Shown: positions 1 to 58,934 of the stretch, in pieces
Layout of the letters: every line of letters starts with the position of its first letter
Numbering within the stretch: position 1 is the stretch's first letter
Source of the DNA: Callorhinchus milii
Lineage: Eukaryota
DNA length: 64,000 nt
Assembly: GCF_018977255.1 (NCBI RefSeq)
Contig: NW_024704743.1
Coordinates: 24,430,001 to 24,494,000 of the forward strand
Reading direction: 5' to 3'
Program-made: the position numbers and the translations under genes
Notes under the pieces: generated by a model
What the model was told of the DNA's origin: nothing
Database searches by the model: none
The model's input: the letters and a program-made list of their open reading frames with translations, nothing else

Positions 1-62
1 GAATTGAACTCAGGTCTCTCACTTGCAAAGCAAGTGCTCTAACCACTGAGCTACAGGACTCC
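1..62 (-). mobile_element. tRNA-derived SINE head (truncated by window edge)
   Basis: Reverse complement GGAGTCCTGTAGCTCAGTGGTTAGAGCAC...GAGTTCAATTC with A and B boxes; same as other copies. Confidence 0.85.
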
Positions 63-990: not shown

Positions 991-3431
991 CCCCCACAGG
1001 ACAGAATATACTGTTACAAACAGAGGATGCTTGCTAAAATCCAAGGCATCAATTGTAAAGTGTTTTGTTTGTTTTAATAGGTAAGAACCACACTCCAGTT
1101 AAGACTAGGATTGAAGAGACAGTTGATGCGAAATGGAGGAAGAAATATGAAAGAAGAGAGGCTTTTCTAAATGCTGGCTTCTTTACAGCTATTGATAAGT
1201 AATTGTCTTTTGACCTTTTTTCAACCAGATTGCACAGAAAGACTTATCCTCAAATCTTAAATGAAAAGGTTCCCTAAGAATTTCTGGAAAAGTTAAATGT
1301 TTGAAAATTCTAGTACAAATTGTGTATTGTGTATCTACAATTTGTTAATCATCAAAATGTCAGAAGTATTGCTCCTGAGAAAAAACGTTAGAATTTTTTT
1401 CATAAACCTTCATATCATATGAATTACATTATGGGTGGAATTCCATTTATGAAAATTAAGAACAATGCCTTAGTGCATGAAAATGGGTGGACATTTTGAT
1501 TCTGTTCAAAGAGCAGTTACACGAGGTAGGTTTCTCTTTATTATCATCCAATTTTCTTGCATGAATTACCTACTGATATATTTAGTTTGTTCCTGCAATT
1601 TTTCTCAATAACCAAAGTCCCAGGCAGAGAGGGGATAAAAGGATTTACAAAAAGATAACTGAAGAAAACAGAAAATACCTACGTGGCTGTTTGATTACAC
1701 AGATGCACAGATTTAACTGATGAGCAATGATTAAGATACATTAAGGTACAGAGCGAAGCCATTACTGAGCTTTGTAATCTTACCCATGAGGAATTTAAAA
1801 CACACAATAAAATCAACATAGCTTTGCTTCTTGATGTATGTTTCACTGTTTACTTAAGGTTTTATCCGATCTAGTTAATTCTAAAACATTATGGATGGCA
1901 TAAGAACAGTTGGTCATTTTGGGGTCGACGTTGTTGTTGGCCAAGTCATTAATGATTTGTACTCAGAAGACATCCTGATGCCATACAATTTGTAAAATAA
2001 TTGAAGTATCTTTCCAACAAAATCGAAATGCATCATCATAAGGTACACTTATCACAAAATTGGTAAAAGTAGAAATAAACAACTAACATTTTTTTCTGGT
2101 ACATATTACATCAAAACACTTCACAGTGTCTCATAGTAATTACAGATAAGAGCAAAACCTGATTTTTTTCAGCAAATATGGAACCCATTTTTTGCACACA
2201 ACAGAGACCAGCAAACAGCTATGATGTGAAACCAGTTTATCTCATGAATTGTTGGCAGGATATCAGGAAACACTCTTTTTTGAATGTTATGTATATTTGA
2301 TAAACACCTGAAGAACAGACAGACAAAACAGTGGTTTGCCTTACCCAAAATACTGAACATCCAACAACATAGCAGACGATACTTTGAGTTCATATCCCAA
2401 TGTGAGGCTTCAGGGCACGTTCTGAACCAATGGCAAGAGTGCTACCATGAGTAGGCTAGGTTGACACCTAGGGGCATCAATATAGTTATCAATAAATAGC
2501 AATGCAGAGCTTCAGCATCACCATAAAACAGTGGATTGCTAGAAAAAAACGATTGAAGCTCATTGGCCATTATCATGAGATAGTCATGAAAAGTATTTTT
2601 TTAAATTGTACAATGATATGCAGACAAGCACACTATATATTAATGCAGATAATCCTTTACCTTTATCTATGCATGTGTTTAAATCAGCATTGTGATTTCT
2701 TCAGTTTGTTTAATATTATTCAAGTATAATAAAGAGAGCAGGTGGGCTGGGACTGCATGTTTGTAGGACAGAGCGTACTAGGGTAGGAGGAGAAGGCTGA
2801 CACTGTGGGAGAGGAAAAAGGAATGTGGGGGTGACAGAAGAGGTGGCACTATGAGTATGTGTGGGGTGTGTATTGGGGAGAGGGAAGGCCTGGAATACTG
2901 TGCGTGACAAGGGAGGTGAGAATGGCTGGCACAGTCTGAAGATTTTAACCTCTCTAATTTACTCAAATACAATGCAGCTTTTTTTTATTGGTGAGCGAGG
3001 TTAGGCCTGCTCTCCCCCATTAACCAAATTAGACCGAAACGTTTTCCACTTTGGGAATGAGGGTTGCCCCTGCAGACAAAATCTTCTAGGCCCCAAATTG
3101 TCAAAGGACAATGTGGACCTGAACCATGTCTTCACGACCACCCGAGCAAGTCAAGTGACCAGATCACCTGTCCCGCCTGTGCCTAGTGACCAGATGCTCA
3201 AGTGAGCTCTGAGTTCCAGTATCTCCGCTTCCTCTTTGTAAGGGAAGATCAAACTCCTCAGATCAGAAGTACTGCAATACCAATCCCAACCAACAGAGGT
3301 CTGAAAGCATAGCTGTAGCCAGGCGCTCAATCCTTCCCATATCCAGTTATTATGGGTGAGATTTAGTCATGGCAACCAAACAAGCAAATCTCAACAGATT
3401 AACTTTTCTAGCATCGCCTAGCTCAAGGGGT

Positions 3432-3485
3432 AACTGATGTGAACAGAAACTACACTCGATCTTAGCCGAAAGACCGAGAAGCGTT
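3432..3485 (-). pseudogene. U2 snRNA 5' fragment (~54 nt), head of a candidate chimeric retroposon
   Basis: Reverse complement ACGCTTCTCGGTCTTTCGGCTAAGATCGAGTGTAGTTTCTGTTCACATCAGTT matches the U2 5' end (ATCGCTTCTCGGCCTTTTGGCTAAGATCAAGTGTAGTATCTGTTCTTATCAGTT) with a few substitutions. The Sm site and 3' half are absent. Confidence 0.9.
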
Positions 3486-3957
3486 TTAATGTAGAGGTAG
3501 ATAACTCATTATGTCCACTGGCAGAATTGTCATCCACTACCTACAAATCACTGGTTATGGATTTGTCTTCCCTTGTGTTATTCCTTTACAAGACAACAGA
3601 GGAATGCATTGTCACTTGTATCAAATCACTCAGTAATTCAAGGCTAAAAATAAGATTTCATATTTTACGCTGGCACTAATTAACACAACAAATAGGTCAA
3701 GGAAAGTTGACACCAATGAAGGATGACACCTCTAAAAATGCAGCACTCATTGTGGAGTGTTTAGCCTAGAATATGAGCTCAAGAAAGTCTTGACATGGGG
3801 TTTGAATCCACAACCTCTGCTTCAGAGATGAGAGTGCTATCAAGTGAGCCAAGCTGATACACAACCTGCAGTCAGATCACAAATTATTGATTAGTTCTGT
3901 ACATTTAAGGAAGTACTGGGTTTTCCAACATTTAAAGGGGTTCTTTTGTACTTGCAG

Positions 3958-11400: not shown

Positions 11401-14400
11401 TGCAGCATGAGCGGGAAATGGGCTTCACTCACCCTGAATCCCCGCTGTTGAGCTTGGCTGTGTGTCTCCCTCCTCTGTCTGCATGTGTATGTCTGTGAGT
11501 GTGTATGTGTCTGTGAGCGTGTGTCTCTGTGAGTGTGTGTGTGTGTGTCTGAGTATGTGTCTCCCTGTGTCTGTCTGTAGAGATAAGAAAATATATGTCT
11601 ACATTAAAAAAGTTGTACTGGGTTCCATTGTATACAGTGGATAGATTCAAAATGTTCTAGACTAGCTTGCTTAACATCGTATAATGGAATGTTTTATGCT
11701 GTTTCACAAAGGAGAATACAGGCCAGAAGGAGGGAGCATTTCATTGAAAAACTGAAAATCATTTACAGTGTATTGTGCGGGCTTCTGAATATGAGATGCA
11801 GAGATCTCAAACGTTCTGTAAGTCCATAAATTCTCTGTGTGATGTTCAATCAATTGCAGGAGGATTAGTATGAAAAGTAACCATTTAATTAAATATAGTG
11901 AGTATCATACTAATTGTATTTATGAATTAGTGTTACAAAATTAAAGGAATATTGAATTGCCAACAATTGGCATATATCCAGTCTCAGCTGGGGCTGCTTT
12001 TGCTTTCTTCAAGCCAGGTAACTGATGCATGCAGAAACCCATCACTGTGCTTGAATGTATCCAAACCAGAAAGAGTTCCACGTATGTACACCATCTACGT
12101 TTGGAACATTTTTTATGTCTGGAATAGAATGCACACTTGCTCCCTGGAGGGATATGCGCTGCATTCCTAATTCCAGTGAAATATTAGGTGTAGGCTGGAG
12201 AGAGATGAGGCTTGGGGATTTGAGTGTGTGTTCAGGTACTACTAAAACCGCATAGCTTGCCTTTGAGAGCATTGTCTGGTAAGCTTCCCACTACCTATCC
12301 AGCTAGGACCAACCTACCACTTAGAGCTTTGACTTGCGTGGTTAAGGGAAACTGAGTGGGAAGAATCTCTGTGACTAGTCCGCTTCTCCAAATCTTAACA
12401 ATGAGCCAGACTGGTTGGGCTGTAGTCAGCAGTGCTCTGGAGCATTGCAGATCTGCCTGGCTCAGGAACCGGACTGCTAAGAGCATCACATAGGATTGAC
12501 TTGATTCCAACATTCCATTGCCAAGCATGTTACCTTGGGAGACAACTCAACTCCAAGGAAACCTTGCTAACCAACTTTTAATCTCGGATACGGAAAAAAT
12601 TCCATATAAAATAAAATGTAATTTTTATGGAATTTCAAGTTTGTTCTGACTTGTGTTTTTTGTTAGTTAAAAGTGCAAACATCATATTCAAATTGCACAT
12701 TATAATTAAACAATGTAAAAATAAGTTCAAATACTACACAATAATTCCACAGTGCTAATTGAGAGGCTAATTTACAGCTAATAAGCAAATAACCAACCAA
12801 CTAACTAAACAATAATAATATGAAATAATATATAACAGCCAACATGACAACAGAAAGTGTAGATTCAAAGACCAACTTTTTGAGAATATTGGCATCACAA
12901 TTGATGGAGAATCTATATGATATGCAGTAGTTATTAAGATAAATGCGTAATAGGAAATTAAATAGGAGGTACACATGTTCCATGGATCAGACAAAATTAA
13001 ATAGACTAATTTTTAAGACATAACATTTTTTAAAAAAATCTAATAGTTTAGAATGGGCTGATTGTACTACAGCAAAAGTAAAGCAAATTCTTAAAGAAAT
13101 TTCTGCAGTATGCTAAACGTAAGGAAAATGGGCAGTAGAAGCAAACTTTCTAGAAGATCCAGAAGAAATATCAGGAAAAACCTGGAGCTGCCTCCAGCTT
13201 TAGGGGAGTTTGTTCACTCAGCATCATTGAAGGCCTAAAATTTCATCTGGTCTCAGCACTCAGGACCATTTGTCATAAAATGTAAGATTATGCGGATATA
13301 TGTGTGAATGACTTAGCAATATCTAAAAGTTTGCAGATGACACAAAACTTGGGAACATGGTAAACAGTGAGGAAGATGGTAGCAGACTGCAGGAGGAAAT
13401 AGACAGAATGGCAAAATGGGCAGACACATGGCAGATGAACTTTAATGCAGAAAAATGTGAGATGATCCTTTTTTGGAGGAAGAATAATGAGAGGCAATAT
13501 ACAATAAATTGTACCGTTTTAAAGGGTAGGAGCAGAGAGACATGGGAGGTTATTCACATACACAGGTCTTTGAAGGTGGCAGGACAGGTTGATAGAGCTG
13601 TTAAAAACATGGGATCCTTGAGTTTATAAATAGAGGCATAGAGTACAAAAGCGAGGAGGTTCTTCTAAACCTTTATAAGTCATTGGTTAGGCCTCAGCTG
13701 GAGGATCATGTCCAATTCTGGGCACCACACTTTAGGAAGGATGTCAAAGCCTTGGAGAGGGTGTAGAAGAGATTTACCAGAATGGTACCAGGGATGATGG
13801 ACTTTAGGTATGTGGAGAGACTAGAGAAGCTAGGATTGTCCTTATTGGAGCAGAGAAGGTTAAAGGGGATTTAATAGAGGTGTTCAAAATTATGAGGGCA
13901 TTTGATAGAGTAGATAAGGTAAACTGGCTGGTGGGTCAGTAACCAGGGCACATAGATATAAGATAATTGGCAAAAGAACCAGAGGGCAAATGAGAATGTT
14001 TTTTTACACAGAGAATTGTTACGGTCTGGAATCCACTGCCTGAAAGGGTAGTGGAAACAGATTCAATAACAACTTTCAAAAGGGAATTAGATAGGTGCAG
14101 GGGCATAGAGAAAGAGGGGGGGATGGAACTGATTGCTTAGCTCTTCTGAAGAGCCGGCACAGGCACGATGGGCCGAATGGCCTCCTTCTGTCTTGTAATA
14201 TTCTGTGATTCTATGCATTGTGGAAAATTATTTAATTCAGTTTTAATTTGGAAGCCATGTTCTTTGTAATAACTGGAAAACTGACCTCCAAATTGTAAGA
14301 ATTTTTCAGAATTCTGCAACATCTTAAATTTTTACAATAAATCGTTTTAAAGGTAAAGGCTCGGTGGAATTACAGCATCCAATTTATCTGCCCTGCAGTT

Positions 14401-17400
14401 TCTTTAATACTGATATGGTATTGTACTCTCTTGCAACTGACTTCCCACTTCTTGAATTATGTATGTGTACTACCTCATTAATATACTTGGTTTTACTTTT
14501 TCTAAACAATTGATTATTAAAGTTAGACCTACAAGGGGAAAAATAATTTACAACTGGAATTCCAGGAACTGATACTAAAGTACTCTGCACCTGAATTACA
14601 TTCATTGCAGAATACTTTGCCAGCAAAATTAGAATATTTTGTTACTAGAATTGTTTAAATATTTGTATCAAATTTGCATTGACAAACAAAACATATCTTT
14701 CAATTAGACGCCACTGTCCAGTGATTATATACAATATCTAATGAAAGATCTTCAAACTGAAAGGAATGCGAGGCCTCTCAGACCCTTGCAAAAAGAAAGG
14801 TAAGAACAAATCTTATATAAAATGTTATCATGTGTCGAAAAGAATTACTGTATATTCATATTGTTTGTCACTAAAGCAGCTAGATTGTTAGAATAGATAT
14901 GATTTGTTCAGTAACCTGCACATCAAATGACCTGTAAATCTGCTCTGCTAAAGAAATGTATCCCCTTTATAACTTCATAGTATTATATAATAATAATACT
15001 TATATTGGATATAGTGCCTTTCACGTCAGAGGATGTCTCAAAGCAGCTCATATGATTTACCGTAAAGTGCAGTGACTGTATTCTGTAGAGGAGCATGGCA
15101 GCTAGTTTGCATATAGCAATGTCCCACAAACAGACAAGAGGTGAATGATCAATTATATCTGGGGAATTGTTGGCCAGGACACTGGGTGGAAACTTCCTTC
15201 TCTTTTCAGATAGTGCCATGGGATCTTTAATGGATGTTTCATCTCAAAAATGACACTTCTAACAACACATCACTCCCCAGCGCTGCACTGAAGCGTCAGC
15301 CTAGATTATGAATTCAAAATTCCAAAAGGGGTAGGGTGTCAAACCCACAACCTTCATGACTCAGAGGCAAGAATGCTACCAGTTAAACCAGACTAGCACA
15401 CAAATGATGGGTAAGGTAATTCGAAAGTGGAGAGAGAAGGAAGAAGTGTGAATTTACGTAGATATTGTGAAACATTGGCACTGTGTGTGTGGGTGGTGGT
15501 GGTGGGGAGTGGGGGGAGAGAAGGTTGGTAGGTGGAAAATGAGAGGATTGAGGATAAGGACTGTGACAGTGCATGAGAGGGAGAATCTACCTTGCATTGC
15601 TAGGATTTTCTGTTGTTTCCAACCATTCAGTAAGGTTTAGTTTATTGACAATTTGTGTAGTATACTAGTGACAGTAAGAATCTTTTGATTGAATTAAAGA
15701 TGGTACACAAAGCATATTATATTTCATTTAGTGACTTGGTAATGTAACCATTTTCTCTCTGTTGTTACATGTGTCAGCCTCTCTCAGATGATGACACACT
15801 TGACTCTGAGCCAGAAGGTTGTGGGTTCAAGCCCCATGTTAAGACTTTGAGGTCATAGTCTACGCTGGCACTCACCTAGTCTAGGCTGGGAGTGTGCTGC
15901 ATTGTTAGATGTGTTCTCCTTTAGATGAGATGTTGCCCCCTTAGGTGGACGTTAAAGATATTGACTCTTCTAAAAAAAAAATGATTTTTTACCAGTACCC
16001 TGGCCAGCAATCTCCCAGATTAAATCAGTTATTCACTTCATTGCTATTTGTGGAGTTCTGTGGTTTAGTGGTTAGCGCACTCACCTCGCAAGTGAGAGAC
16101 CTGGGTTCGATTCCCGGCAGGGCGAAATATTGGGCAAGTTTCAGTATTCCACACGCCTCTGTTTACCTAACCTGTGGAGTCCTGTAGCTCAGTGGTTAGA
16201 GCACTCGTTTTGCAAGCGAGAGACCTGAGTTCAATTCCAGGCAGAGGGCGAAACTTTGGGCAAGTTTCCTTACTCCACACAGAGCCTAATAATAATCCCT
16301 CCAAAACCAAAAACAATAATAAATTGGTCATTTTCAATCCACGACAGTTTGTGGGACATTGCTGTGCTCAATTGGCTGCCGCGTTCGCCCACAAATATAG
16401 AGTCAATTCACTTTACATTGTGTTCTGTGAAGCGCTTTGGGACGTCCTCCCGAAGTGAAAAGCGCTATATCAAATGCAAGGATTATTATTATTATAACAG
16501 TAAGTAGGAACCCGTCTGTTAGTTGATTGGTGGATCGCTTTTCCGGTGGTAATATATAATAGTCCTTGCATTTGATATAGGGGTTTTCACGTCTTCTCGA
16601 CATCCCAAAGTGCTTAAAAGAATAGACTGTAAAGTGAATTGACCATATATTTGTGGGCGAAACACAGCAGCCAATTGCGCACAGCAGTGTCCCACAAACA
16701 GTCATGGATTGAAAATGACCAATTTTTTATTATTGTTTATTTTTGGAGGGATTATTTCTTCAAAAAAATCATTCCTTCAAAAAAAAATTGGTAACTTCAA
16801 TCCACGACTCTTTGTGGGCCACTGCTGTGCGCAATTGGCTGCCGCATTTCGCCCACAAAATATACAGTCAATTCCCTTTACAGTATATTCTGTGAGGCGC
16901 TTTGAAAGGTCTCGAAGGCGTGATAAGGCGCTATATTGAATGCAAGGATTAGTTTTATTATTATTTGTGGAATATTGTGTGTGGAAATTAGTTGCCGTGT
17001 TCACTGACAAAGTAGTCACTACTATGTTTGATGTGATAAGACATAATATCAAATGCATCATCTATATTGGGACTAATCTCAAGTAATATAGATTTTAAAC
17101 TCTACAGGATGCTGTGGTAGTATTTGCTTGCACTGAACACTATTGCTTGCACTGGTAAAAATAGAATTTAGATATCAAAATTCAGTTGAGCATCTTTGAA
17201 ATTAGTCAAGAAGGTTGGAGGCACATTTTACCATAGAGCTCTCATATTGATGGATGCAGTTTAATCACTAATAAAGTACAAAAACACAAAGATATGTAGT
17301 GGAAGCATTACGTTGCCTTGAATTATTCTGGGATAATTATAATTCAATCATTGTAACTTTGGAAATAGTGGCTATAAACTCAAAACATCTCGAAGGTGCT

Positions 17401-23400: not shown

Positions 23401-26400
23401 TAATACACACATGCATAGAATACAAAAGGAAACCAATAAAAGCTAAGTTTGCATAAATCATTGATTTGGCAGCGATTGGAGTTTTGCATCCAGTTTGGGG
23501 CACCTCACTTCAGGAAAGTGAGACCTTAGAGGGAGTTGATGAGAATCATTCCAGGCATGAAAGGCTTCAGTTATGAAGAGAGATTGGAGAGGCTGGGTCC
23601 ATTTTCATTGGAGCAGAGAAAGTTGAAGGGGGACCTGATAGAGGTGTAATAATAATAATCCTTGCATTTGATATAGCGCTTTTCACGTCGGGAGGACGTC
23701 CCAAAGCGCTTCACAGAACACACTGTAAAGTGAATTGACTGTATATCTGTGGGTGAACGCGGCAGCCAATTGCGCACAGCAATGTCCCACAAACAGTCGT
23801 AGATTGAAAATGACCAATTTATTATTGTTTTTTTTGGAGGGATTATTATTAGGCTCTGTGTGGAGTAAGGAAACTTGCCCAAGGTTTCGCCCTGCCTGGA
23901 ATTGAACTCAGGTCTCTCGCTTGCAAAGCGAGTGCTCTAACCATGAGCTACAGGACACCATAATGTACAACATTATGAGGGGTTTTATTAGGATAACAGG
24001 GAGAAATTATTTCCATTGATAGGGGAGTCAGTAACTAGAGAACGTAGTTATAAGATAGCCACAAGAATAGTGAATGGAAAACTTAGAAGAAATGTTTTCA
24101 CTTGAGAGTTGTTGGGATGTGGAATGTCCTGCTGAGTAGGGGGATGGAAGTCAGATTCCATTGTAGTTTTCTAGAATGAAGTGAACAGGCATATGAAAGA
24201 GACAGGTTTGAAATAACTTCTTTCTAGAAATAACTTCTCCCTGTAACCTATGGGTATAAGGCGAGGCAATGGTGAGAGTGAAGTGATCTCACTTGTGCCA
24301 GCCTGGTCAGTGGTAGCACTTTCTCTTTTGAGTCAGAAGGTTATGGGTTCAGACAACACTAAATTACACCTGTATGGCGCCCTTCACGTCGGAAAGACAT
24401 CGCAGGGTGCTGGACAATCAGGATTTGTTGGACCCGAGTTGTGGTCAGGAGGGGTGGAGAGTGGCCGAAGGCACGGCTGAAGAGGTAAGTCTTTAGACGG
24501 GACTTGAAGGAAGCAAGAGAGGGGGTGAGGCAGAGGGATTGAGGGATAGAGTTCCAGATTGTGGGGGCAGAAATGCAGAATGCCCGACCACCAGTGGTGT
24601 GGTGGGAAGTGCAGGGGACCTGAAGCAGGCCAAGTGGAGAGAGCGGACAAGCTGATATGGGGTTAGGAGTCCTGTAGAGCACTTGCCTGGCAAGCGAGAG
24701 ACCTGCGTTCAATTCCTAGCAGGGTGAAACCTCGGGCAAGTTTCCTTACACTCCACACACCCGATTTTAAAAAAAATTGTTCACTTTAATCCACGACTGT
24801 TTGTGGGACACTGCTGTGTGCAATTGGCTGCTGCGTTTCGCCCACAAAATATACAGTCAATTCACTTTACAGTCTATTCTGTGAAGCGCTTTGAGACATC
24901 TAGAAGACGTGAAAAGTGCTATATCTAATAGGACTATTATTATTGTTATTAGGAGGTTGGAGAGGTAGGGAAGCAACCCCGCACCGGAACTTGAAATCAA
25001 ATAGTCTAAGCTGACACTCCAATGCAAAGCTGGGGCTATGTTGATTTGTCAGAGCTGTTGTCCTTTGAATGAGATGTTAAACTGAGGTCCTGTCTGCCTG
25101 TTCAGGTGGATGTTCAAGATCCTATGGTACTATTCGAAAAGAGAAGGGAGTTTTTCCGGTGTCCTAGCAAACAAATCTCCCTAATAAAATTGGTCATTCA
25201 CTCATCCCACTGTTTGTGGGATGTAGGTTTGAGCTGGTGTTACAATCGTGTTAATTACCACCAAGATTAGATAGGAAATTTATTTTAATTTTTAGCATTG
25301 GTAATTTTATCAACCAGACTAGACCATGTTCCTCTAGGTTGTGGAGAAGGTTCTGTTTACTCATATATAATAATAATAATCCTTGCATTTGATATAGCGC
25401 TTTTCACGTCTGGAGGACGTCCCAAAGCGCTTCACAGAATATACTGTAAAGTGAATTGACTGTATATTTGTGGGCGAAACGCGGCAGCCAATTGCGCACA
25501 GCAATGTCCCACAAACAGTCGTAGATTGAAAATGACCAATTTATTATTGTTTTTGGTTTTGGAGGGATTATTAGTAGGCTCTGTGTGGAGTAAGGAAACT
25601 TGCCCAAGGTTTCGCCCTCTGCCTGGAATTGAACTCAGGTCTCTCGCTTGCAAAGCGAGTGCTCTAACCACTGAGCTACAGGACTCCACCATATTCATAT
25701 TCTGCACCTATACAACTAACTGGTGAAGGTGCTATCTAACAGGTTAATTACATACTTTGTAGACTTAGTTGTCTAGGAGCATAGTTATGTTTCCATAATG
25801 CTACGGTTATTATAGAGGGAAACACAGGTTCTAAGTTCAGGCAAAAGCTGAACAAACTACCATATACTGACAAAACCCTGGAGATTGTGGATTTCTCTAG
25901 ATCCAAAAGTAGTATCCTTCAGAATTACCTGCGAGACAGTTTTAGAAGTGTGACAATTTTTTCTTCAGAATCAAATAATTTTGAATTCCAATGTCTAGCC
26001 TTACTATCTTTTGAAGACTAGTGTTACGTAAGCCTTACATCAAATGGATGAAAAGGAGCCATTTATGGTCTGATTATAGTGTACATTCTAAACACTTTAA
26101 TGCTGAACATTGTTTCAATAATTACAGACTTTGTAATTAACAGACAAAAACTAATGGTGCAAGAAATAACTACGGCTGCCTTTTGAGTAGGAATATTATT
26201 TAAAAATGTGATTGACTGAGGTAACCATTTTTAAATTCTCTTTATTCAAAGACAAATATAATTTTCTTTTGTTTAAACAGAAATCGTGCAAAGAGACTGG
26301 GTGCCATCCTGACGGTTGTTAATACTGTGCCAGACGTGAATTTCAACTCAATGCTAGAAATACTGAATCATCAGTCTAAATTTTTAGAACCAACCAAACA

Positions 26401-28703: not shown

Positions 28704-31700
28704 GTCTATAGTTGTTTAGGATCAATATTAGAGTAATAAAAACACATAAATTCTGAGACGTTTCAGTGCCCTTGTGTATAACCTGAAAGCATACAAAACA
28801 ATCTGGCTCAGGAATATAACTGTTTGTCTACATCTGCTGGTAGGCATTGCTTTTACAGCTTTTAGTTTTGTAAAAAAAAGATATTTGACAATAGTTTGCT
28901 GAAAAAACATTAGGTTTGAAGTGAATCTAATCTATTATTATGTGCCTCTGCAGGTTTAATATACTAAAATTGGAATGTTTAGTAGCTGATGACCCAACTG
29001 AAGAAATCACAAACCAGTTGAAGAAAATTAGATTTTTCCGAAACTTTACTTCACAGGCTTTACCTTCTTCTGAGGTAAAATTTGGGGAAACATAATTGCA
29101 ACCATGTGTTTTTGCAGAAATTATTTATTTCATATAATGCAAGAGTCGACACTCCTCCAGATAAAACGTCATGGTTGTTTGTGGGACATTGCTGTGGCAC
29201 AAATTGGCTGCTGCATTTGCCTACAAAATACACAGTCACTACACTTTACACTATATCCTGTGAAGTGCTTTGAGACTTGTTATATGTGCTGCCAGCAAAT
29301 GAGCTTGGTGACTGAATGTATTGCAGGCACCAATAAAAAAAACTGGCACATGTCTGAAAAAATTACACATTTACAAAAAAGGGCAGAGCATATTTGGCAA
29401 TATTTTTCAAATACTTTGTGTGATTAAGCATTTTGAAAAGTGCATGGAAATATTTATTGTAATAATAATGGCAAATACAAAGCTGGAATAACTGATACAG
29501 ACTACATTAAGTATTGTGGCACAATAGCTCAGAAAGCAAATTTCTTTCTCCAACAATACTATTGTTCCTTTCATTTTTTTTCTTAACTCTGCACCATGCT
29601 GGGAAATACAGGATTAATTAAGCTCTTGTTGCCAACATACAGTAAATATATAACAAAGCACGCTTTTTAAGATTACAATAAAATTCAGTGATGTGCCATT
29701 TTTCATTAACAAATAATTACTTGCTTTGAGACATAACAAAAGATCTTTGTCCTCTTGATGAACAGATTTTCTTTGACTGTGTATGTTTACCGGATTGTGA
29801 TACATCATACAGTGCCATTCGCAAAATAATCTTGGAGGTTCTTCGTATACATATCACTGGCATACGTGGATATTTCCCTTTTGTCTGGAATTAAGTGTAC
29901 TGGAGAGATGCATCTTCCTTGTGTAATTCTAGAAAATAAGTAAACCCTGGATAACTCGTCATTCCAAAGGAAAAGGGCCCAGTGATGTATTATCCGATCT
30001 GACAAGTTAGACATGGAGCCTCACCTTATGTTCCTTGGCCCTCGGCGCTGCTCTCTCGCTCACTCAGCCGGCACCCACTGGCCGCAGACACAGCATCCGA
30101 ACATGCTCACCAAACCTCCACCGAGCACTCACACCCACAGGTTAGGGTGAATGGACACAGCGCACCCCTCCAATAGACCAAAGGCCTCTGCGATGCTTCT
30201 CCGCCAAGTGCCCACGTCAGCATCACAGGATAGGGTGCAAGGCTTCTCCGATCCAGTACTCTAGTTGCAGTCAAAGCACCAAACAGCTTGAGAACATCAT
30301 CTGGGGATCTAAACTAGACTGACTTAGTAATATAGCCCAGCAACCTGTTTGCCTTATTTATTAATAATAATCCCTCCAAAACAAAACAATAATAAATTGG
30401 TCATTTTCAATCTACGACTGTTTGTGGGACACTGCTGTGTGCAATTGGCTGCCGCGTTCGCCCACAAATATGCAGTCAATTCACTTTACAGTATATTCTG
30501 TGAAGCGCTTTGGGACGCCTAGAAGACGTGAAAAGTGCTATATCAAATGCCAGGATTATTATTATTATGTTTCACACTGTTTTAACACAGTGAGTTATGA
30601 CTAACATCATTAGATCTGTTTCATCCATGCTTTTGTCACCTGCCTCGATTTCTCCAATGCACTCTTTGCCGGTCTCCCCAGTTCCACCATTCACAAAATC
30701 AAATTGATTCAAAATTCTGCTGCCCGTATTCTCACCCATACCAAACTCCGCACCCCTTCACCCAGGCTCCACTGATTCCCTGTTGCAGAACGGATCAGTT
30801 TCAAGATCCTCACACTCACCTATAAATTATTTCACACCTCCCTATCTCTCAAACTTGCTCACACATCGATCCTCTACCTATCCCCTTCGCTTAGTCATTG
30901 GTAAGCACTCTGAAGTTAAGCATGAAGGGCATTACATAAATGCTAATACTCCCCTCTGAGTCAGAAGGTCATAGGTTCAGGCATCAAAACTCCTGCACTA
31001 AACAGGTATTTTTCCCACTGATTTCACTGAAAAGCAGTAAAGTGATGTGGTTTAATCAAATGGGCATGAAAATGTAATTAAATGCAATGTTTGAAAAAAT
31101 AGATTTGGGAACATTTTCAGATCAACACATAATAATTTTTATGCATTAAAAACATTTGGAAACTCTTAACTCTCATACTCTCATGGCTCGACTATGCCAA
31201 TGCCTGCTTGTCCCTTCCCAATTCTTTCCTCCACAAGCTGCAGATCATCCAGAACTCTGCACCTCGTGTCCTCTTCTCGCACCAGGCTCCATGACCCTAT
31301 CACCACCACCCTCACCCGGCTCTACTGGCTCTCCAACCCCCAGTTCGAAATACTCATCCTATACAAATGTAATCTTCTTCTTGTTGAATCCTTTCAGTAC
31401 AATGGTTTCATTTCAATTATATTTTTCTGAAATAAAGTGTAGGTTTTAGTCATTTGTGAAAGAACTGGGAAATCATTCTCATATTCAGTATATTGGGAGT
31501 CCTGTAGGTCAGTGGTTAGAGCACTCGCCTCGCAAACGAGAGACCTGGGTTCGATTCCCAGCAGGGCGAAATGTTGGGCAAGTTTCCTTACTCCACACAC
31601 CTGTGTTTACCTAGCAGTAAGTAGGAACCTGATTGTTAGTCGATTAGTTTGCTTTTCCAGGAGTAATAATTCCTTCATAAAAAAATATTCACTAAATTCA

Positions 31701-40300: not shown

Positions 40301-43300
40301 GGAAACCAGAAGAATGCCACCCTTGCTACTCTGACATGAGAGACTTCCGCTGGAAGTAGATTAAGCTACAGTGGCATTTTTGTGAGTGCGCATCACAGAT
40401 TTCTTAATTTTAAAATAATCTCTATTACATGCAATGTTCTATAATTAATGCTGCAACTTGGGATATTGTAGTTACTTTGGTTGAAAACAATTTTTAAAAA
40501 ATGCGAAGCATCTGTGTAAAATGCAGTGTTCAGTTTGTTAATTTCAGCAATGGTGTACCATCGATACTGCTCAGATTTCAGGGCTGTTTATATCAAATTA
40601 CCTTCTTAGAACTTTGTTTAGACCCGGGAGAATATTTGATTTCAGAATGTCTTGCATCTACTCAAACATTTCCTGTAATTACCCAATTATAATTTTTCCA
40701 CTTCCAGCATTTCTCTATCAAATGTTAAGACTGTTGAAATAATCACAATGGGATAAGCAAGTCGTGTTTCATCTCATGTGGGATAATGACATTTAATCTG
40801 ATTTCACTTTTTACTGTGGCACCAATGTTCTGCCAACTCAGCATTCTTTAAACTGTCCCAACTTAATCCTGAGCCCAGAGCTGCAGTTTTTCTTGTTTTT
40901 TTTAAAAAGCAGAGATTCTGTATGGAAACTCTTGCTGAGCAATTTCCTTTCGCAAATCATTTAAAGCTACATTTGTGATACATGATTGCTTAGTTTTTTT
41001 AAAAAAATCTTCCAATATTTTTTCTTACAAGTGCAGATGCTCATCAGCATCATTTGTTGAATCAGACCTAAATGTTGATTTGAGTTGATTACCCATCAAT
41101 AGGTCACACCAAGACAGACTGGTAGGAGACATTAACAAACAAGGCAAGCCTCTTTCCATTGCTCAAATTCCCCTTAGTCACCCCACACTGGGGTAATCCC
41201 AGCCTGGCACTGGCATTCTTGCCTCTGAGTCAGAAGGTTGTGTGTTGAAGAATCATGTTGGGATTGGAACATATATGGTCCATGTTCATAATCCAGTGCA
41301 TACATGGAATTCTCAGTTGGGGCCCCCTGAATGGTTACTTTATCCTTCAGATGAGAAGTTAAACTGAGGTCCCCTCTGCCCATTCAGGTGGACGTTAAAG
41401 ATCCCATTGCACTATTTGAAAAGAGAGGGAGTTTCTCCCAGTGTGCTGGGCAATAATCCCCTAGATAAAACTGGTCACTCACTTCAAGGTTGTTTGTGGG
41501 ACATTGCTGTGTGCAAATTGGCTGTTGTACACTTTACAGTAATATCCTGGGAAGAACTTTGAGATGTCTCGACAACATGATAAGGCGCTAACTCAAATGC
41601 AAGAATTACTGTATTTTACTTTGGAGAATTTCTCACTGTTGTGCAAGATAATGAATATCAGTTGGAAATGGATGTCATTTAGCTAGGGACAGTTTCTACC
41701 AACCAGAACTCAAATCCATGTCTTTTGGACAAGAAGTCTGCATTCTGTTGTCTGAGCAATCAGATTGAAAAGCACAGCCAGATCTCATAATGTCAATGGC
41801 AATACAATTTGCATATCAGAGTTATAATCCGCATCTTTGGCAGCATAGCAGTACTATATCTTTCATGCAGCCCAGAAATAGATATCATGATTTTTTTTGG
41901 TCAGCCAATGCCTGACACTGGTGGAAACTCATCACCGTGCTTAAGAGTATCCAAACTGAGAATTCTATGTATCCCACTTACACATGGAAATTCCAGAGAC
42001 AGATTGTTGGAATGTAATGTGCACTCTCTCCCTGGAGGGACACATCCCGCTTTACCTAATACAAAAAGCATTATACGCAGGTTGGCAAGAGCCAAGGCTT
42101 GGGGACCCCAGAATGTGCGTTGGGGTACTGCTGGAGTCTAACCCGCTAAAACCACATAGCTTGCCCTTGATAATAGAATCATAGAATTATACAGCACAAA
42201 AGGAGGCCATTCGGCCCATCGTGTCTGTGCTAGCTCTTTGAAAAGAGCTATCTAAATCAATCCCACTCCCCCGCTCTCTCCCCATAGCCCTGCAAACTTG
42301 TCGTCACCAAATAATTATAATAATATAGCGCTTTTCACGTCTTCTAGATGTCTCAAAGTTCTTCACAGAATAGACTGTAAAGTGAATTGACTGTATATTT
42401 GTGGGCAAAATGCGCAGCCAATTGCACTTAGCAGTGTCCCACAAACAGTTGTGGATTGAAGTGACCAATTTATTATTGTTTTTTTTTGAGGGATTATTAT
42501 TAGGCGTGTGGAGTAAGGAAACTTGCCCAAGGTTTCCCCTGCCGGGAATCAAACCCAGGTCTCTCGCTTGCAAAGCGAATGCTCTAACCACTGAGCTACA
42601 GGACTCCACATCTACCTCTCTCTTAAAAACTGTTATCGAATCGGCTTCCACCACCCTTTCAAGCAATGCATTCCAGATCTGAACAATTCGTTGTGTAAAA
42701 AAAATTCTCCTCTCCTCTGCTTCTTTTAACAACTATTTTAAATCGGTGTCCTCGGGTTAACGACCCACCCACCAGAGGAAACAGTTTCTCCTTGTTCACC
42801 CTATCGAATCTCCTCATAATTTTAGAAACTTCTATTAAGTCTCCTCTTAACCTTCTCTGCTCTAAGGAGAATAATCCTAGCTTCTCCAGCCTCTCCTGAT
42901 AACTGAAGTTCCTCATTCCTGGTACTATCCTGGTAAATCTCCCGTTTGCACCCTCTCCAATGCCTTGACATCCTTCCTAAAGTCTGGTTCCCAGAGCTGA
43001 ACACAGTACTCTAGCTGAGTCCTAACCAATGTTTTATAAAGGTTCATCATAACTTCCTGACTTTTGTATTCTCTGCCCCTGTTTATAAAGCCTGGTATCC
43101 CATTTGCTTTTTTAACAGCTTTATCTGCCTGTCCTGCCACCTTCAAAGATTTGCTTATATGAACCCCCAGGTCTCCCTGTTCCTTCACCCCTTTTAGATT
43201 GGACCATCAGCTTATACTGGCTCTCCTCATTCTTCCTCCTAAAATGCATCACTTCGCATTTCTCCACATTAAACTCCATCTGCCACGTGTCTGCCCATTT

Positions 43301-46300
43301 TACCAGTCTATCTATGACTTTTGGAGTCTGCTACTATCCTCACTGTTTACTACTTTTCCTGCTTAGTATTAGCTGCAAACTTGGAAATTGTACTCCCTAT
43401 AACCAAGTACAGGTTATTTATATACATCAAAAACAGCAGTGGTCCCAATACTGACCTCTGGGGGACACCACTGCACACTTCACTCCAGTCAGAAAACAAT
43501 CGTTCACCACCACTCTCTGCTTTCTGTCTCCCAGCCGTCCTGTATCCATGTTGCTACTGTCCCTTTAATACCGCGGGTTTCTATTTTGTATATCACTGTG
43601 TAGCAAGCTGTTCCGCTTCTTGTCCAGCTGGGACCACCCTACTAGTTAGGGCTTTCGCTTGCAGGGTTAAAAGGAACTAAGTGGGATGACTCCTTGCCCC
43701 CATTGACTAGTCTGCCCTTCTAATTCCTGCCGATGAGCCAGACTGGTTATGCTGTCATCAGCAATGCCCTGGAATACTGGGGATCCGCCTGGCTCAGGAA
43801 CCGGACTATCAAGACCACCACAAAGGGCTGGTTTGTTTCTGATATTCTGTTGCCAAACATGTCATCTTGGAGCCAGTTCAGCTCCAATGAGACCCAGCTT
43901 ACCAAGTCCTCACTCAGTACCAGCTGCTTAATCATGACATTTACTCATTCTTGGATCGGCTGTTGTGAAAATCCTTCATCTAATAGGAGAGGTAAAAAAA
44001 CTATTTAATCTACAGGATTCATCAGGCACTTATTAACATCAAATAATGCTCCTAGTGCCTGAAGAAAAATGTATTTGTAAATAAACATCAACTGGGGTCC
44101 GGGGGGAGAGTTAGTGAAAGAGAAACAAAGAAGTCGATAAAATGAGAGGAATTCATGGTGAAACATGAGTGCATTTAAAATGTTTAGTTTTGTTTTGTGG
44201 AAAGCCTCACCTAAAGCAGCAGATTTAAACACGGATTACAAGTCTGCGCAAACCAAATCCCATCTGTGGTACTCCTTTCACTCCAGTGATTTAAGTCTAT
44301 GCTGACCTAGTTGTCCTGGAGACTATTTGTAACTTTATATTCCACATTTTGAGTTTGGGATTTATTGCTTATAGTATTTAAGTGAGAACATTTTAACATA
44401 GAGACTTTATTTTCTAAAATTGTCCATATCGCTAAGAAAAATGTTCAAGAAGCATATAGCTACGGTTAAAAACAAATTGCAGGATTGATGTCAAACCTGC
44501 TAATCCCACAGATGAATGCCAGTATCTAGCAGAATTCACCAGCTGTGCTATATCCATAGTGCAAAACAAAGAGACCCGAAAGAATGAGTGCCTTTCTTAA
44601 AATGTAAAAACAAATCAAAATTGAAAGAGCCTTTATGACGTTACCTCATTAACAGGGCAAAAACTATTTTGATTTCAACAATTTATGCCCTATTCATACT
44701 GCTGGAAGTGATCAGAAGACAAATATATTTCCCCTTTACTCAATATCTGATTTGCTGGGAATCAATGAAACCTGCACGTGGGGAGCAAAGTGCTGGCTTT
44801 CAAAGGTAAAATCTCCAGTGCAATTCACTACAAGCTTGCAAATTCCAAACTCAATTTACACAGCATTTTTAGCATTGATTTGTGCCATTCAGTTTCACAC
44901 AATTTAATCTAGAGATTGCATACTCTGTTATTTTGAGAGAGGAAGGAAAGGAAAGCAAACCCACAGGGAGACAAGACTGACTCCAGTGAGGGAGACAGAC
45001 CGGAAATGAGGGAGAGAAAAGCAGAAATGGGCTAAATCAAATAAGAGATGTGAGCAACATCGACCACTTGCATTTCCATAGTACTCTTCATGTAAGATAA
45101 TGCCTTAAAGAGTGCTGCACAGTGGCAATTGGACACTGAGCAAGGCAGAAGGGACAGGTGGCCATAAGCAGTCAAAAAGGTAGGTTTTCAGATGGGACTT
45201 GGATAGATAAGGGGTGATGAGGGAGCAAACAGAAGGACTGAGGCAGGGAGTGCAGAGATTACAGACATAGTGGCTGAAGGCACAGCCACTGAGTGTGTTT
45301 CAGAGTGGTTGGGGGATGTGCAGCAGGCCCTTGTTACAACAATAACAAGATTACATTTGTATAGCGCCTTTCACGTCGGGAGGACGTCCCAAGGCGCTGG
45401 ACAGTACAGCATTTCAGACCCGAGCTGGGGTCAGTGGGGGCTAAGGGAGCTGGCTGATGGCAAGGTCGAAGAGGAGGGTCTTGAGGCGGGACATGAAGAA
45501 GGCTAAGGAGGGTGCGAGGCGGAGTGACCTGGGGATGGATTTCCAGAGGTTGGGGGCAGAGTGGCTGAAGGCTCTCCCGCCAATGGTGGGGCGGGTGGGT
45601 CGGGGGATGTGGAGCAGGCCAGAGCCGGCTGAGCGGAGGAAACGAGCGGGTTGGTAGGGGGATAGGAGGTCGCAGAGGTAGGGTGGGGCGAGGCCATGGA
45701 GGGCTTTGTATGTGAAGACCAGGATCTTGAACTGGATCCTCTGAAGGATAGTGAGCCAGTGGAGTCGGACTGTTAGCTGAGCAAAGGGAGCCAGCAGGAG
45801 TGGAGTATGAACAGGTCAGAGAGGGAGAGGAGTGGCAGAGCAGTGCCAGAGAGTGAAGAGATTTGTATGTGAAGGTGAGCAACTCTTATGTTTCAAAAAA
45901 TCATTATCACATCAATGGCCGAGGTTCAAAACAGTCCCTTAATAATAATAATCCTTGCATTTGATATAGCGCTTTTCACGTCGGGAGGACGTCCCAAAGC
46001 GCTTCACAGAACACACTGTAAAGTGAATTGACTGTATATTTGTGGGCGAACGCGGCAGCCAATTGCGCACAGCAATGTCCCACAAACAGTCGTAGATTGA
46101 AAATGACCAATTTATTATTGTTTTTGGTTTTGGAGGGATTATTATTAGGCTCTGTGTGGAGTAAGGAAACTTGCCCAAGGTTTCGCCCTCTGCCTGGAAT
46201 TGAACTCAGGTCTCTCACTTGCAAAGCGAGTGCTCTAACCACTGAGCTACAGGACAGTGTCACTTAATTTGAGGTCACTCAGACATCTTCCACCATTGAA

Positions 46301-53100: not shown

Positions 53101-53690
53101 CCCACTAGTTAGGTGGAAGGTGTAGCCAGGTGGTGTTGCCTCTATCAGGGGGAAGGTGTCGTCTGGAATGATCCAGGTTTCAGTGAGGGAGAGAATGTCG
53201 ATGTTTTCGTCGACAATGAGGTTTGGGATGATGAGTGTTTTGTTGGAGAGGGAGCGGACATTTTGTAGGCCGATGCAGAAGGGACAGTTGATGGCAGAGT
53301 GTGGGGGCGAGGGGGGGAGAGTAGAGGATTGACAGGGAGGGTGGGGATGTGGATGAGGGAGGAGAGATTGGCCCCAGTGGTCAGGGACCGATGAGCCTTG
53401 CGGCAAGAGTAGGGGATAGAGCAGTCAGTGTGGCTGCTGGTGGACAGCCAGCTGCGACTCCCACGATGGGCCCGACGGAGGATTCACAGGCTGGAGCAGA
53501 GGGAGGCTATGGGACGGTCGAGCAGGGATAAGAGTCGGTGAGGGCGGTGGGAGAGGAGGACCGAGCCGGAGTAATGGAGAGGAGAGGGACATAGGTGGGA
53601 GCATTATGGGGAAGCAGCTCAGGTTGGTGGCGGCAGCCAAAATGCGCACTCCGAGACTAAGAGCAAATGGGGGTTCAAACGGGGGTCCGA
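50115..53690 (-). mobile_element. Near-complete decayed L2-clade LINE ORF2 (APE + RT), interrupted by a SINE at 52484-52783
   Basis: APE motifs GLQNVRSL, LSLTETWI, IHGDFNLH, GHPLDLVITRG, TDHH; RT motifs LLDLSAAFDT, DDTQLY; frameshifted; (TTG)n-like tail. Confidence 0.92.
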
Positions 53691-55870: not shown

Positions 55871-57169
55871 GAACAAGAGAGAGAACAAAATGCCGGATTA
55901 TTTCTTTGTTTGTGTACTCCTCAAATGAAGTTCATAACATCATTCATGTAGCTTCGTAAATTCCTTCAGTGAGACTAGTCAATAGGATTAATTATTCCAT
56001 CTTTAAGGGAAGCTGCATCATTACTCAATGATAAATTTATCAAATGCTTTCAAAAATGCCCAAACGTCAGTTCACCAGCGTACTGAACTCTGTACAAGGC
56101 ACAATACAAAGGCCACAACTGTATTACTGCAGGATATTCAGCAGTCCACACAAGATCAACTGTTCAGGCAAAATATTTTCTTTATCCTATATACTTTGCC
56201 ACAAGTTAAAACATTTACTGAAAATACATGAGATAAATAGACAGCAAAAAACAGACCACACTATTACCAACTATATATTGTGTTTATTCAACATCTCAAA
56301 AGCTGCAACTAATGTTACACTGTAATGCCATTACTTTTTTGAGGTCATAGAAATTGGTAAGATATGTGAACCCTCGAGTAAGTGCATAGTGTGTGGGCTG
56401 ACACTCCAATACAGAGCTGGGAGAGTGCTGCAATTTCAGAGATGATGTTGTTTGGATGAGCGACATTAAAGCTGAGTCTCATCTGTCTGTTCACATGGAT
56501 TTTACAGATCCCTTGACACTAATCAGAAAAGAGAAGTCTCTCTTAATGTCCTGACGAACAATTCTCCAGAAAAAAATGATTTATTCATTTCACAGCTGTT
56601 TGTGGGACGTTTCAGCACCTTGGGACATCCTGCTGATGTGAAAGGCGCTATGTAAATGCAATTTGTTGTTGATGTTGCTGTGCAAGAGCTGGTGTATCAT
56701 CATATTACAACCATATTAAGGGCTCTGAATTAACCGTGAAGATGATGCTTTACTCAGCAGTGCTTTGACAGTGTGCATCGACCTGGTTCCCATGCCAGTC
56801 TGTCTAAAACCCTTGATGAGATTTGAGTCTCCATCCATTTTAACAAATCAATAGATTCTAATCCACAGTAATTTACAGAATGTTTGCTGAATCCCATTTA
56901 CTTTACCTGGCCAACAATCCCATCATATAAATTGGTCATTCATTTAACTGCTTTGTGGGATACAATGTGTGCAGCAAATGGCTGCCACATTTGCCTACAA
57001 ATAGCCAGTACACTTGACATCAATCTCCCGTGAAACACTTTGAGATGTTTTAACAGAATGGGCGCTTTTTATCAAATAAAAATGCAATGACCTCAGTTTA
57101 ATACCTCATCCGACAGATGGCACGTGCGACAATGTAGCTTCCTCAGTACTGCACTGGTTGTTAGCTCGC

Positions 57170-58350: not shown

Positions 58351-58934
58351 CTCACCCTAGACTGTGAGCTAAAGTCCCAATGTGGGGCTTAAATCCAAAA
58401 AAAGTTACAGCTCCCCAATGGTCCACTGGATAAGGCTATGCTCAATGTGGCAGAGGGGCAGAAAATGGTTTATAACAACTAGTATACAGTTGGATATGCT
58501 GAGGTGGATCTCCTCCAAGTAGAAAATTAATGAAATCTCAACCCAATGTTAAAGCTTCAGCAATGATAATAATAACTCATACTTCATGTACTTTGACTTG
58601 AGGCTGACATCACAAACCGCTTCACAGGATATACTGTAAAGTGAAGTGACTGTGTATTTTGGGGGCGAATACAGCCACTGAGTCAATTCTGATGAGCAAA
58701 CATCTGGTGTGTAAAGTCTAACTTATTTCTAGAATTAAAGAAATGTAGAATATTCCACCAGTGACCAAACCTTCCATCATGAAACTGTGGGTTGCTACCA
58801 AGAGTGGTGGTGCATCAGTCTTCTTTTGGGGGAAAAAGGAACAAATATTAAAATATCCACTGATGTCTATTTCAATAGAGTTTCGTAAAGAGAAATGCAA
58901 GTCTTTTTCATCTCAATTTTCCTAATTCATCAGA

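What the first reader, a model, noticed from the sequence alone, without database searches (positions are those of the whole stretch)
2971..3494. Candidate U2 snRNA-headed retroposon (SINEU-like) in a cartilaginous-fish-type genome
Seen on the - strand: a ~54-nt U2 5' segment (3485-3432), then ~440 nt of non-U2 body that looks less AT-rich than its flanks, ending in CAATAAAAAAAA (T-run 2979-2986 on +). The unit is bracketed by near-identical AATGCAG (2971-2977) and AATGTAG (3488-3494), a possible decayed TSD. Established: snRNA-headed SINEs (SINEU) are described from crocodilians, U-snRNA/LINE chimeras from mammals, and Keno/Utopia retrotransposons insert into U2 genes. Inference: this is a U2-headed poly(A) element mobilised by a LINE other than the L2/CR1 partners seen here, whose tails are microsatellites.
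Basis: partly seen in the sequence, partly recalled or inferred. Interest (0 to 1): 0.7.

Follow-up and report, generated by a model that had tools for sequence, protein, structure and literature searches.

The report
U2-derived retroposon family, cartilaginous fish
This is one old copy of a many-copy, poly(A)-tailed mobile element built from a remodelled U2 splicing RNA (possibly fused to a remodelled U1), a kind of element that the papers found describe only from crocodilians.

Summary
The element is real and belongs to a dispersed family. It spans 3485-2979 (- strand): a U2 5' end (47/54 identical to fish-like U2), a probably U2-derived, much remodelled 3' part to 3247 (28-nt insert, Sm site lost, stem-loop IV motif kept), a ~260-nt tail, a terminal hairpin, AATAAA and A8. 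Laying public-run contigs on the locus gave 585 pieces in the window's species and 195 in a second species, confined to the element; flanks are single-copy, 3' ends continue into unrelated flanks, and 11 of 32 listed pieces bridge the U2/tail junction. Only a few pieces show the U2 5' head on other copies. The insertion is shared with the second species, so it is old. The 7-bp TSD is weak (p about 0.03). The last ~170 nt may be remodelled U1 (alignment tests suggestive, covariance models negative). It works like crocodilian SINEU; an L1/Tx1-type partner and an external promoter are inferred, not shown. Repbase/Dfam could not be searched.

The parts
3488..3494 (-). 5' copy of the candidate 7-bp target-site duplication
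   Evidence: chance about 0.03
3432..3485 (-). U2 snRNA nt 1-54: stem-loop I, branch-point recognition region (one change at nt 38), 5' arm of stem IIa
   Evidence: 47/54 identical to three fish-like U2 genes; Rfam. At 3484 and 3457 other contigs read the canonical U2 letter (table 3)
3404..3431 (-). ~28-nt insertion in the loop of U2 stem IIa, shared with other copies
   Evidence: cmscan shows 34 nt for 6 model positions; bridged by 4 of 32 listed pieces, 2 of them from other loci
3357..3393 (-). lengthened hairpin at the place of U2 stem-loop IIb
   Evidence: cmscan; local fold -9.7 kcal/mol
3336..3342 (-). place of the U2 Sm site, U-run lost
   Evidence: alignments; one X13 loose end also lacks the U-run (table 7)
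3269..3282 (-). U2 stem-loop IV loop motif (binding site of U2B''/U2A' from own knowledge)
   Evidence: only match in 64 kb with up to 1 mismatch, 0.45 expected in the whole window (pattern chosen after seeing the alignment)
3159..3246 (-). spacer of unknown origin; other copies carry about 12 more nt near 3164-3175
   Evidence: junction 3247/3246 bridged by 11 of 32 listed pieces; loose ends at 3159-3175 (table 7)
2987..3158 (-). 3' part, tentatively a remodelled U1 snRNA; Sm-like AATTTG at 3030-3025; other copies carry a ~25-nt G-rich tract near 3077
   Evidence: whole-U1 alignment summed z 2.7-3.6, 1-6 of 500 shuffles, 0-1 of 484 tiles; not found by Rfam U1, custom model or nhmmer
2990..3015 (-). 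terminal hairpin directly before AATAAA; the letter most copies read at 3013 closes the one mismatch in its stem
   Evidence: fold -10.9 kcal/mol; other letter at 3013 in 54 X1, 24 X5, 5 X13, 13 X9 contigs (table 3)
2979..2989 (-). AATAAA running directly into an A8 tail; 3' end of the family
   Evidence: loose ends of 23 X1 contigs at 2979 with agreement 0.39, 0.377 expected for unrelated flanks
2971..2977 (-). 3' copy of the candidate target-site duplication

Best explanation
An old, near full-length copy of a non-autonomous, SINEU-type retroposon family of a cartilaginous fish. Shown: a ~510-nt unit (about 545 nt in other copies) made of a U2 5' end, a remodelled U2 3' part, a shared tail, a terminal hairpin and an A-tail, present at many unrelated sites in two lineages. 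Inferred mechanism: one or a few source copies are transcribed from a promoter outside the element (it has no A/B box by motif scan, and this copy has no snRNA-type element upstream), most simply an snRNA-type promoter kept by a U2-derived source gene that reads on into the tail. The RNA ends in an A-tail and is copied into new sites by target-primed reverse transcription with the protein of an A-tail-recognising LINE of the L1/Tx1 superfamily, leaving short duplications and often shortened 5' ends. The copy here has no promoter of its own and is a fossil. Odds by step: multi-copy U2-derived retroposon about 0.9; U2 3' half genuinely U2-derived about 0.9; L1/Tx1 partner about 0.6; tail derived from U1 about 0.5.
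For: Depth on the element is 52-2339 per bin against about 7 on both flanks in X1, with edges at the A-tail and the U2 5' end; same shape in X5, X9, X13 (summed contig depth is no copy number, but as a ratio to the single flank contig it is 104 at 3013 and 173 at 3245 in X1). Unrelated 3' flanks behind the A-tail. 11 of 32 listed pieces bridge the U2/tail junction in all four runs; X5 records 21 and 23 join U2 nt 22 onward, the insert and the U2 3' part at loci with other 5' flanks. Copies share derived letters absent from this copy (3013, 3240, 3245, 3324), so they descend from a common remodelled source. No terminal inverted repeat is visible and the end is an A-tail. Real U2/U1 genes show a CACCG-like motif about 55 nt upstream in 4 of 5 shown; this copy does not. 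The window's other repeats end in trinucleotide microsatellites. L1 elements mobilise RNAs through the poly(A) tail (PMC3472496, abstract and opening text); the LINE1 superfamily is reported in all vertebrate lineages examined, elephant shark among the genomes (PMC4350176, passages).
Against: Depth falls to 5-10 times single-copy at 3350-3419, and no contig other than the locus itself covers 3484, so an intact U2 5' end is shown for no second copy; the tool drops human-like contigs, which should hit the U2 5' end, and a dip is no finding, but the alternative that most copies start inside U2 stays open. The TSD is weak (0.03) and does not start with the A-rich cut site recalled for mammalian L1. 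No partner LINE was seen. No target preference was seen, unlike crocodilian SINEU-3. The 3' flank is not covered in X5 or X9, and no empty site was found. Whether daughter copies ever became sources is not shown. No other copy's full sequence could be fetched.
Confidence: 0.66

Rival explanations
1. Retrocopies of a functional host RNA gene: a variant, lengthened U2 (or U2-U1 fusion) gene under an snRNA promoter whose polyadenylated transcript was retroposed many times; no copy is itself mobile.
For: Stems I, IIa, IIb-like, III, the loop IV motif and a terminal hairpin are kept; whole element folds at z -2.97; no internal Pol III box; pieces are present in a run guessed to be RNA (X13).
Against: The U2 Sm site is lost and the 3' half is far from any U2 seen; subsets of contigs share their own indels and letters (3042, 3346, 3379), as expected of successive sources; the RNA status of X13 is a guess.
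Confidence: 0.18
2. The family is mainly a repeat made of the U2 3' half plus tail (or the 3' end of an unseen LINE), and the U2 5' head sits only on a minority subfamily or was added by template switching.
For: Depth ratio 173 at 3245, 70 at 3324, 10 at 3364, 5 at 3409 in X1; template switching to snRNAs is common to several LINE clades (PMC4476161, abstract); crocodilian SINEUs gained heads repeatedly (PMC4494074).
Against: U2 similarity is colinear through insert, Sm region and stem-loop IV, which fits one remodelled U2 rather than separate captures; the loose ends shown at 3299 and 3316 are diverged homologues of this element, not foreign sequence; depth does not peak at the 3' end as a shared LINE tail would make it (602 loose-end rows were not shown).
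Confidence: 0.12
3. A Keno or Utopia insertion into a U2 gene.
For: Both target U2 genes, Keno in fish among others (PMC4640811, passages).
Against: Those elements are followed by U2 from nt 39 on. Here U2 runs unbroken past nt 38 to nt 54, the A-tail lies behind the U2 3' part, and no U2 follows the tail.
Confidence: 0.02
4. A single truncated U2 pseudogene beside unrelated sequence, with a chance A-run and direct repeat.
For: No second copy in the 64-kb window; TSD weak.
Against: Hundreds of contig pieces limited to the element in four runs, with many bridging the U2/tail junction.
Confidence: 0.01

Closest known systems
SINEU-1, -2, -3 of crocodilians (Kojima 2015, PMC4494074; parts 1-4 of 5 of the text read, figures and supplements not seen)
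   Same: snRNA-derived 5' part, poly(A) tail, about 500 nt, many copies, no internal Pol III promoter, no LINE sharing the 3' end found; SINEU-2 joins U1 and U2, SINEU-3 is a remodelled U2.
   Different: Lineage (the paper found none outside crocodilians). A whole U2 lengthened by insertions rather than U2 fragments or an internally deleted U2. If the tail is U1, the order is U2 then U1, the reverse of SINEU-2. No preference for a Mariner-like target: the flanks here are single-copy and other copies' flanks are unrelated. Only one T4 run in this copy, whereas most SINEUs hold oligo-T. Sequence homology to SINEU could not be tested.
snRNA processed pseudogenes and snRNA/LINE chimeras (PMC4476161, abstract; discussion in PMC4494074)
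   Same: snRNA 5' end at the 5' boundary, A-tail, short duplication, no promoter upstream.
   Different: Those are independent copies of normal snRNA; here copies share one remodelled U2 and one tail.
CmiSINEs and SacSINE1-CM of the elephant shark (Luchetti 2017, PMC5499810; parts 1-2 of 6 read, term search of the whole main text)
   Same: Non-autonomous retroposons of the same kind of genome.
   Different: tRNA heads with A/B boxes and an L2-2_CM tail; the paper has no occurrence of 'snRNA'; no BLAST similarity between this element and the window's tRNA-SINE or L2 copies.
Keno (Tx1 clade) and Utopia, U2-targeting LINEs (PMC4640811, passages)
   Same: Association of a retroelement with U2 sequence.
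   Different: They split U2 after nt 38 and are followed by its 3' part; they encode proteins. Neither holds here.

Membership tests
SINEU (class) | 5' part derived from U1 or U2 snRNA | tested here: met
   Rfam U2 48.9 bits; 47/54 identity; 3' half supported more weakly
SINEU (class) | 3' poly(A) tail | tested here: met
   A8 after AATAAA; other contigs leave the element at 2979-2981
SINEU (class) | many dispersed copies with a shared structure, not independent chimeras | tested here: met
   585/195/97/95 pieces; 11 of 32 listed pieces bridge U2 and tail; unrelated 3' flanks
SINEU (class) | the snRNA 5' end is carried by most full-length copies | tested here: inconclusive
   2 non-orthologous pieces reach 3464, none but the locus reaches 3484; human-like contigs are filtered by the tool
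SINEU (class) | short, non-coding, no internal Pol III promoter | tested here: met
   507 nt; no stop-free frame of 72 aa or more lies inside it (list); no A or B box by simple recalled motifs
SINEU (class) | target-site duplication or alteration from TPRT, confirmed by an empty orthologous site | tested here: inconclusive
   7-mer with one mismatch, p about 0.03; the second species carries the filled site
SINEU (class) | more than one source copy (copies themselves transpose) | tested here: inconclusive
   shared indels in subsets of contigs (tables 3-4); no copy sequences available for a tree
crocodilian SINEU-1/-2/-3 (families) | sequence homology to the family consensus beyond the snRNA parts | not testable with these tools
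   Repbase is not held; the paper's figures are not held and no supplement could be read
crocodilian SINEU-3 / Tx1-Mar system | preferred insertion into a Mariner-N4_AMi-like repeat | tested here: not met
   both flanks single-copy at 80% likeness in X1; 3' flanks of other copies agree no better than chance (variable A-tail length could blur a short motif)
Keno / Utopia | insertion after U2 nt 38 with U2 3' part behind the element | tested here: not met
U2 snRNA gene (functional) | Sm site and upstream snRNA promoter element | tested here: not met
   U-run of the Sm site lost; no CACCG-like motif in the 90 nt upstream
U1-derived segment | significant match to U1 sequence and structure | tested here: inconclusive
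   positive in end-to-end alignment, mixed in local alignment, z -1.3 to 4.9, negative in Rfam, custom model and nhmmer

The most novel reading that the evidence does not exclude
The element is a U2-spacer-U1 dimer that arose from a read-through transcript of linked U2 and U1 genes (such head-to-tail pairs lie on fish-like contigs L035 and L036), kept the U2 5' end, the stem-loop IV protein site and a single Sm-like site before a terminal hairpin, and so still assembles as an snRNP-like particle from an snRNA promoter. It would be an independently born SINEU whose source is a live, spliceosome-related fusion RNA in cartilaginous fishes.
Probability: 0.1. Interest if true: 0.85.

Novelty: new variant of a known kind. 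Interest (0 to 1): 0.6.

Why it matters
SINEU is the fourth SINE class and, in the papers found, rests on crocodilians alone; how such elements are transcribed without an internal promoter is left open by the describing paper. A second vertebrate lineage, with a different build and an insertion shared between two species, would show that snRNA-derived retroposons arise repeatedly. It makes the transcription question testable by looking for promoter-bearing source copies and for the RNA 5' end. It also marks past activity of an A-tail-recognising LINE in a genome dominated by L2-driven SINEs. The value drops if Repbase or Dfam already hold the family.

Tried and rejected
No whole genome is held, so no genome-wide BLAST. 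No second copy in the window; the 15-mer at 29328-29342 matches only the last 15 nt. Motif scans for family copies found none: viral contigs (one 22-mer hit L001, 24-nt BLAST match only, taken as chance), metagenome contigs, genome contigs; these are prokaryotic or viral collections, so the blanks say nothing. Look-ups of earlier scan findings by sequence and relatives were empty. No RNA holder was listed among the runs; X13 is only guessed to be RNA. The 3' flank (2650-2964) has no cover in X5, X9 or X13, so the TSD could not be checked there. Tail against U6, U5, U3, 5S and U2 from the fetched loci: z 0.7-2.2, not pursued. Rfam's Chlorobi-1 hit on the tail (15.7 bits, gathering 50) is taken as chance hairpins. 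The spacer does not resemble the fish-like U2-U1 spacers (best E 0.06). The idea that both U2 T-runs were removed to allow Pol III read-through was dropped as evidence: by rough hand estimate the loss is likely by drift at this divergence. No absolute date is given: the flank shared with X5 and X9 differs at 44 of 328 and 42 of 341 letters, but the species and rate are not established. 146 of 160 stop-free frames of 72 aa or more were scanned against Pfam; no host gene passed a cut-off, so the gene context is unknown. Ten paper searches found no report of an snRNA-headed SINE in cartilaginous fish; Repbase Reports, Dfam and subscription papers are not covered.

Full report
Observation. The minus strand reads, from 3494: a 7-mer, two extra bases, U2 nt 1 at 3485, about 500 nt, AATAAA running into A8 (2986-2979), one G, and the 7-mer again with one transition (2977-2971). 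The element is 47% GC and its last 260 nt 51%, against 38-40% in the flanks. The direct repeat is only modest evidence: 2.9% of 5000 random flank pairs did as well.

The U2 part is longer than reported. Rfam aligns the entire U2 model to 3485-3247 (48.9 bits, gathering 46); the 5' part alone scores 35.8. To test the remainder I used real U2 genes that lie on eukaryotic contaminant contigs in prokaryote assemblies (33 loci; 18 of them scanned and confirmed as U2). The first 54 nt are 47/54 identical to three fish-like genes. Aligned end to end, U2 nt 55-190 of five genes fits 3431-3241 with summed z 3.9-4.3; 0-1 of 500 shuffles and 0 of 662 other window tiles reach the score under three scoring schemes, and cross-controls give z at most 0.5. 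Local alignment of 19 distinct U2 genes gave z from -0.6 to 4.8, 3.0-3.7 for the three fish-like ones. Against this, the 3' part alone gives no Rfam U2 hit, nhmmer E 0.76 at best, and a custom covariance model finds only stem-loop IV, ranked fourth of seven at E 3.2. The loop IV motif occurs once in 64 kb, at 3282-3269 (pattern chosen after the fact). I read this as one whole U2 that was remodelled: a 28-nt insert in loop IIa, a lengthened IIb-like hairpin, no Sm U-run, loop IV kept. It is not a working U2 gene: the CACCG-like motif seen about 55 nt upstream in 4 of 5 real U1/U2 genes shown is missing here.

It is a family. No genome was held and the window has no second copy, so I laid contigs of four public runs on 2650-3699 at 80% likeness (4 of the 24 runs listed). 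In X1 (organism A, the best holder) 585 pieces were laid; each flank is covered by one contig (depth about 7, 0-2 differences), while bins inside 2965-3489 have 52-2339. X5 (organism B) gave 195 pieces, X9 95, and X13 (organism A, guessed RNA) 97, with the same limits. Summed depth is not a copy number, but its ratio to the flank is 104 at 3013 and 173 at 3245 in X1, 52 and 56 in X5, pointing to the order of a hundred copies or more. At 2979, 23 X1 contigs leave the element into sequences that agree at 0.39; unrelated sequences give 0.377 (0.354-0.404), and the smaller sets in the other runs also match chance or its upper edge. Of 32 pieces listed (1049 more not shown), 11 bridge the U2/tail junction by at least 31 nt on each side, in all four runs; 4 bridge the insert, two of them (X5 records 21, 23) at loci with other 5' flanks. 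One X1 contig joins the U2 5' part and the start of the insert directly to 3173, an internally deleted copy. Most copies differ from this one at the same places (3013, 3081, 3180, 3194, 3240, 3245, 3324); the letter at 3013 completes a 10-bp hairpin just before AATAAA. Loose ends show that other copies have about 12 more nt near 3164-3175 and a G-rich tract near 3077 that this copy lacks.

Limits of that result. Cover is low at 3350-3419 (5-10 times the flank in X1) and only the locus itself covers 3484. 5' truncation, divergence beyond the 80% limit and the tool's silent removal of human-like contigs (the U2 5' end is such a stretch) would all produce this, but the data do not show what share of copies has an intact U2 5' end. 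Cover at 3420-3480 may include ordinary U2 genes and pseudogenes.

Age. X5 and X9 each have one contig running from inside the element across the 5' junction into 200 nt of flank (44 of 328 and 42 of 341 letters differ); they share nearly all differences, so they count as one lineage. They read the canonical U2 letter at nt 2. The insertion therefore predates the split of organisms A and B. Their 3' flank is not covered, which is unexplained.

Lineage. The window's longest reverse-transcriptase frame (57164-58351; Pfam RVT_1) has its most similar named relatives in Callorhinchus milii (66-73% identity; 61% for a fourth) against 50-56% for the teleost entries. This fits a cartilaginous fish, not a crocodilian. 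The window's common repeats have tRNA-like heads (9 Rfam hits) and the seven ends inspected carry (ATT)n or (TTG)n, like the L2-driven SINEs described for the elephant shark (PMC5499810); the element shares no BLAST similarity with them.

The tail. By eye its last 170 nt recalled U1. With five real U1 genes, end-to-end alignment to 3246-2986 gave summed z 2.7-3.6, 1-6 of 500 shuffles, 0-1 of 484 tiles; two of the five genes were weak on their own, and reversed U1 ranked 16-24 of 484 tiles, so composition helps a little. The U1 3' end falls at the element's 3' end without being forced there. Local alignments were mixed, and Rfam, nhmmer and a custom U1 model found nothing on that strand. Since the same models barely see the U2 3' half, I leave this at about even odds. 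If true, the unit is U2-spacer-U1; U2 and U1 lie head to tail on two fish-like contigs, and U2 is linked to other snRNA genes in several fishes (PMC3544641, passages), so read-through of a gene pair is a possible origin beside template switching. Both are inference.

Mechanism. Shown: a dispersed, non-coding, A-tailed family with a U2-derived front. Inferred: transcription from an outside promoter, since no A or B box was found; retroposition by an A-tail-recognising L1/Tx1-type protein (PMC3472496; LINE1 superfamily in all vertebrate lineages, PMC4350176; PMC5203782 passages do not mention sharks). No partner was seen, depth does not peak at the 3' end as a shared LINE tail would cause, and no target preference is apparent. 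The main rival is a set of retrocopies of one functional variant-U2 gene; only copy sequences can separate the two.

Comparison. It works like crocodilian SINEU (PMC4494074), which the author found nowhere else, and meets the class features that could be tested; it fails the Mariner target preference of SINEU-3 and the anatomy of Keno/Utopia (PMC4640811). Homology to the crocodilian families is untested. Passages in PMC5381603, PMC5753468, PMC5786205 and PMC7245038 name no snRNA-headed SINE in cartilaginous fish, nor did ten searches; Repbase and Dfam were out of reach, and supplements of PMC4494074 could not be read. Two unchecked notes of this scan report U2-derived SINE-like elements in other genomes, which suggests recurrence and makes this case less singular.

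Verdict. A real, old member of an apparently undescribed SINEU-type family in a cartilaginous fish; new variant of a known kind; interest 0.6.

Noticed in passing
L002-L034 (genome contigs): 33 loci in prokaryote MAGs hold eukaryotic U2 genes, some beside U1, U3, U5, U6, 5S or tRNA genes: host or other eukaryote contamination of these assemblies.
   Followed up: partly
L035:805-968 and 1284-1474; L036:314-477 and 1368-1557: U2 followed by U1 on the same strand, about 316 and 890 nt apart, on fish-like contaminant contigs.
   Followed up: partly
window 2650-2964: The 3' flank has no cover in X5 or X9 although the 5' flank does; it holds a pyrimidine-rich stretch (about 2740-2930 on the minus strand) that may be a later insertion or simply diverged below 80%.
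   Followed up: no
window 57164-58351 (-), 52751-53104 (-), 13327-13626 (+): LINE remains: a 396-codon open reverse-transcriptase frame, a weak endonuclease hit and a weak RT hit.
   Followed up: partly
window 1-60, 919-989, 16054-16244, 23887-23957, 25619-25681, 31498-31569, 42538-42602, 46190-46252: Nine Rfam tRNA hits that lie in high-copy window repeats, most likely SINE heads.
   Followed up: partly
window 29617-29853 (-): Weak Pfam hit to a CATSPERB Ig-like domain (E 0.003, below cut-off); possibly an exon, possibly chance.
   Followed up: no
window 3471-3468 and 3342-3336 (-): Both T-runs of normal U2 are broken in this copy, leaving one T4 at 3081 that most copies also lack; compatible with Pol III read-through but not beyond chance.
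   Followed up: partly
earlier finding e1-7791182 (same genome): A 239-letter stretch judged a truncated U2 pseudogene has the same length as the U2-like part here; it may be another copy of this family.
   Followed up: no
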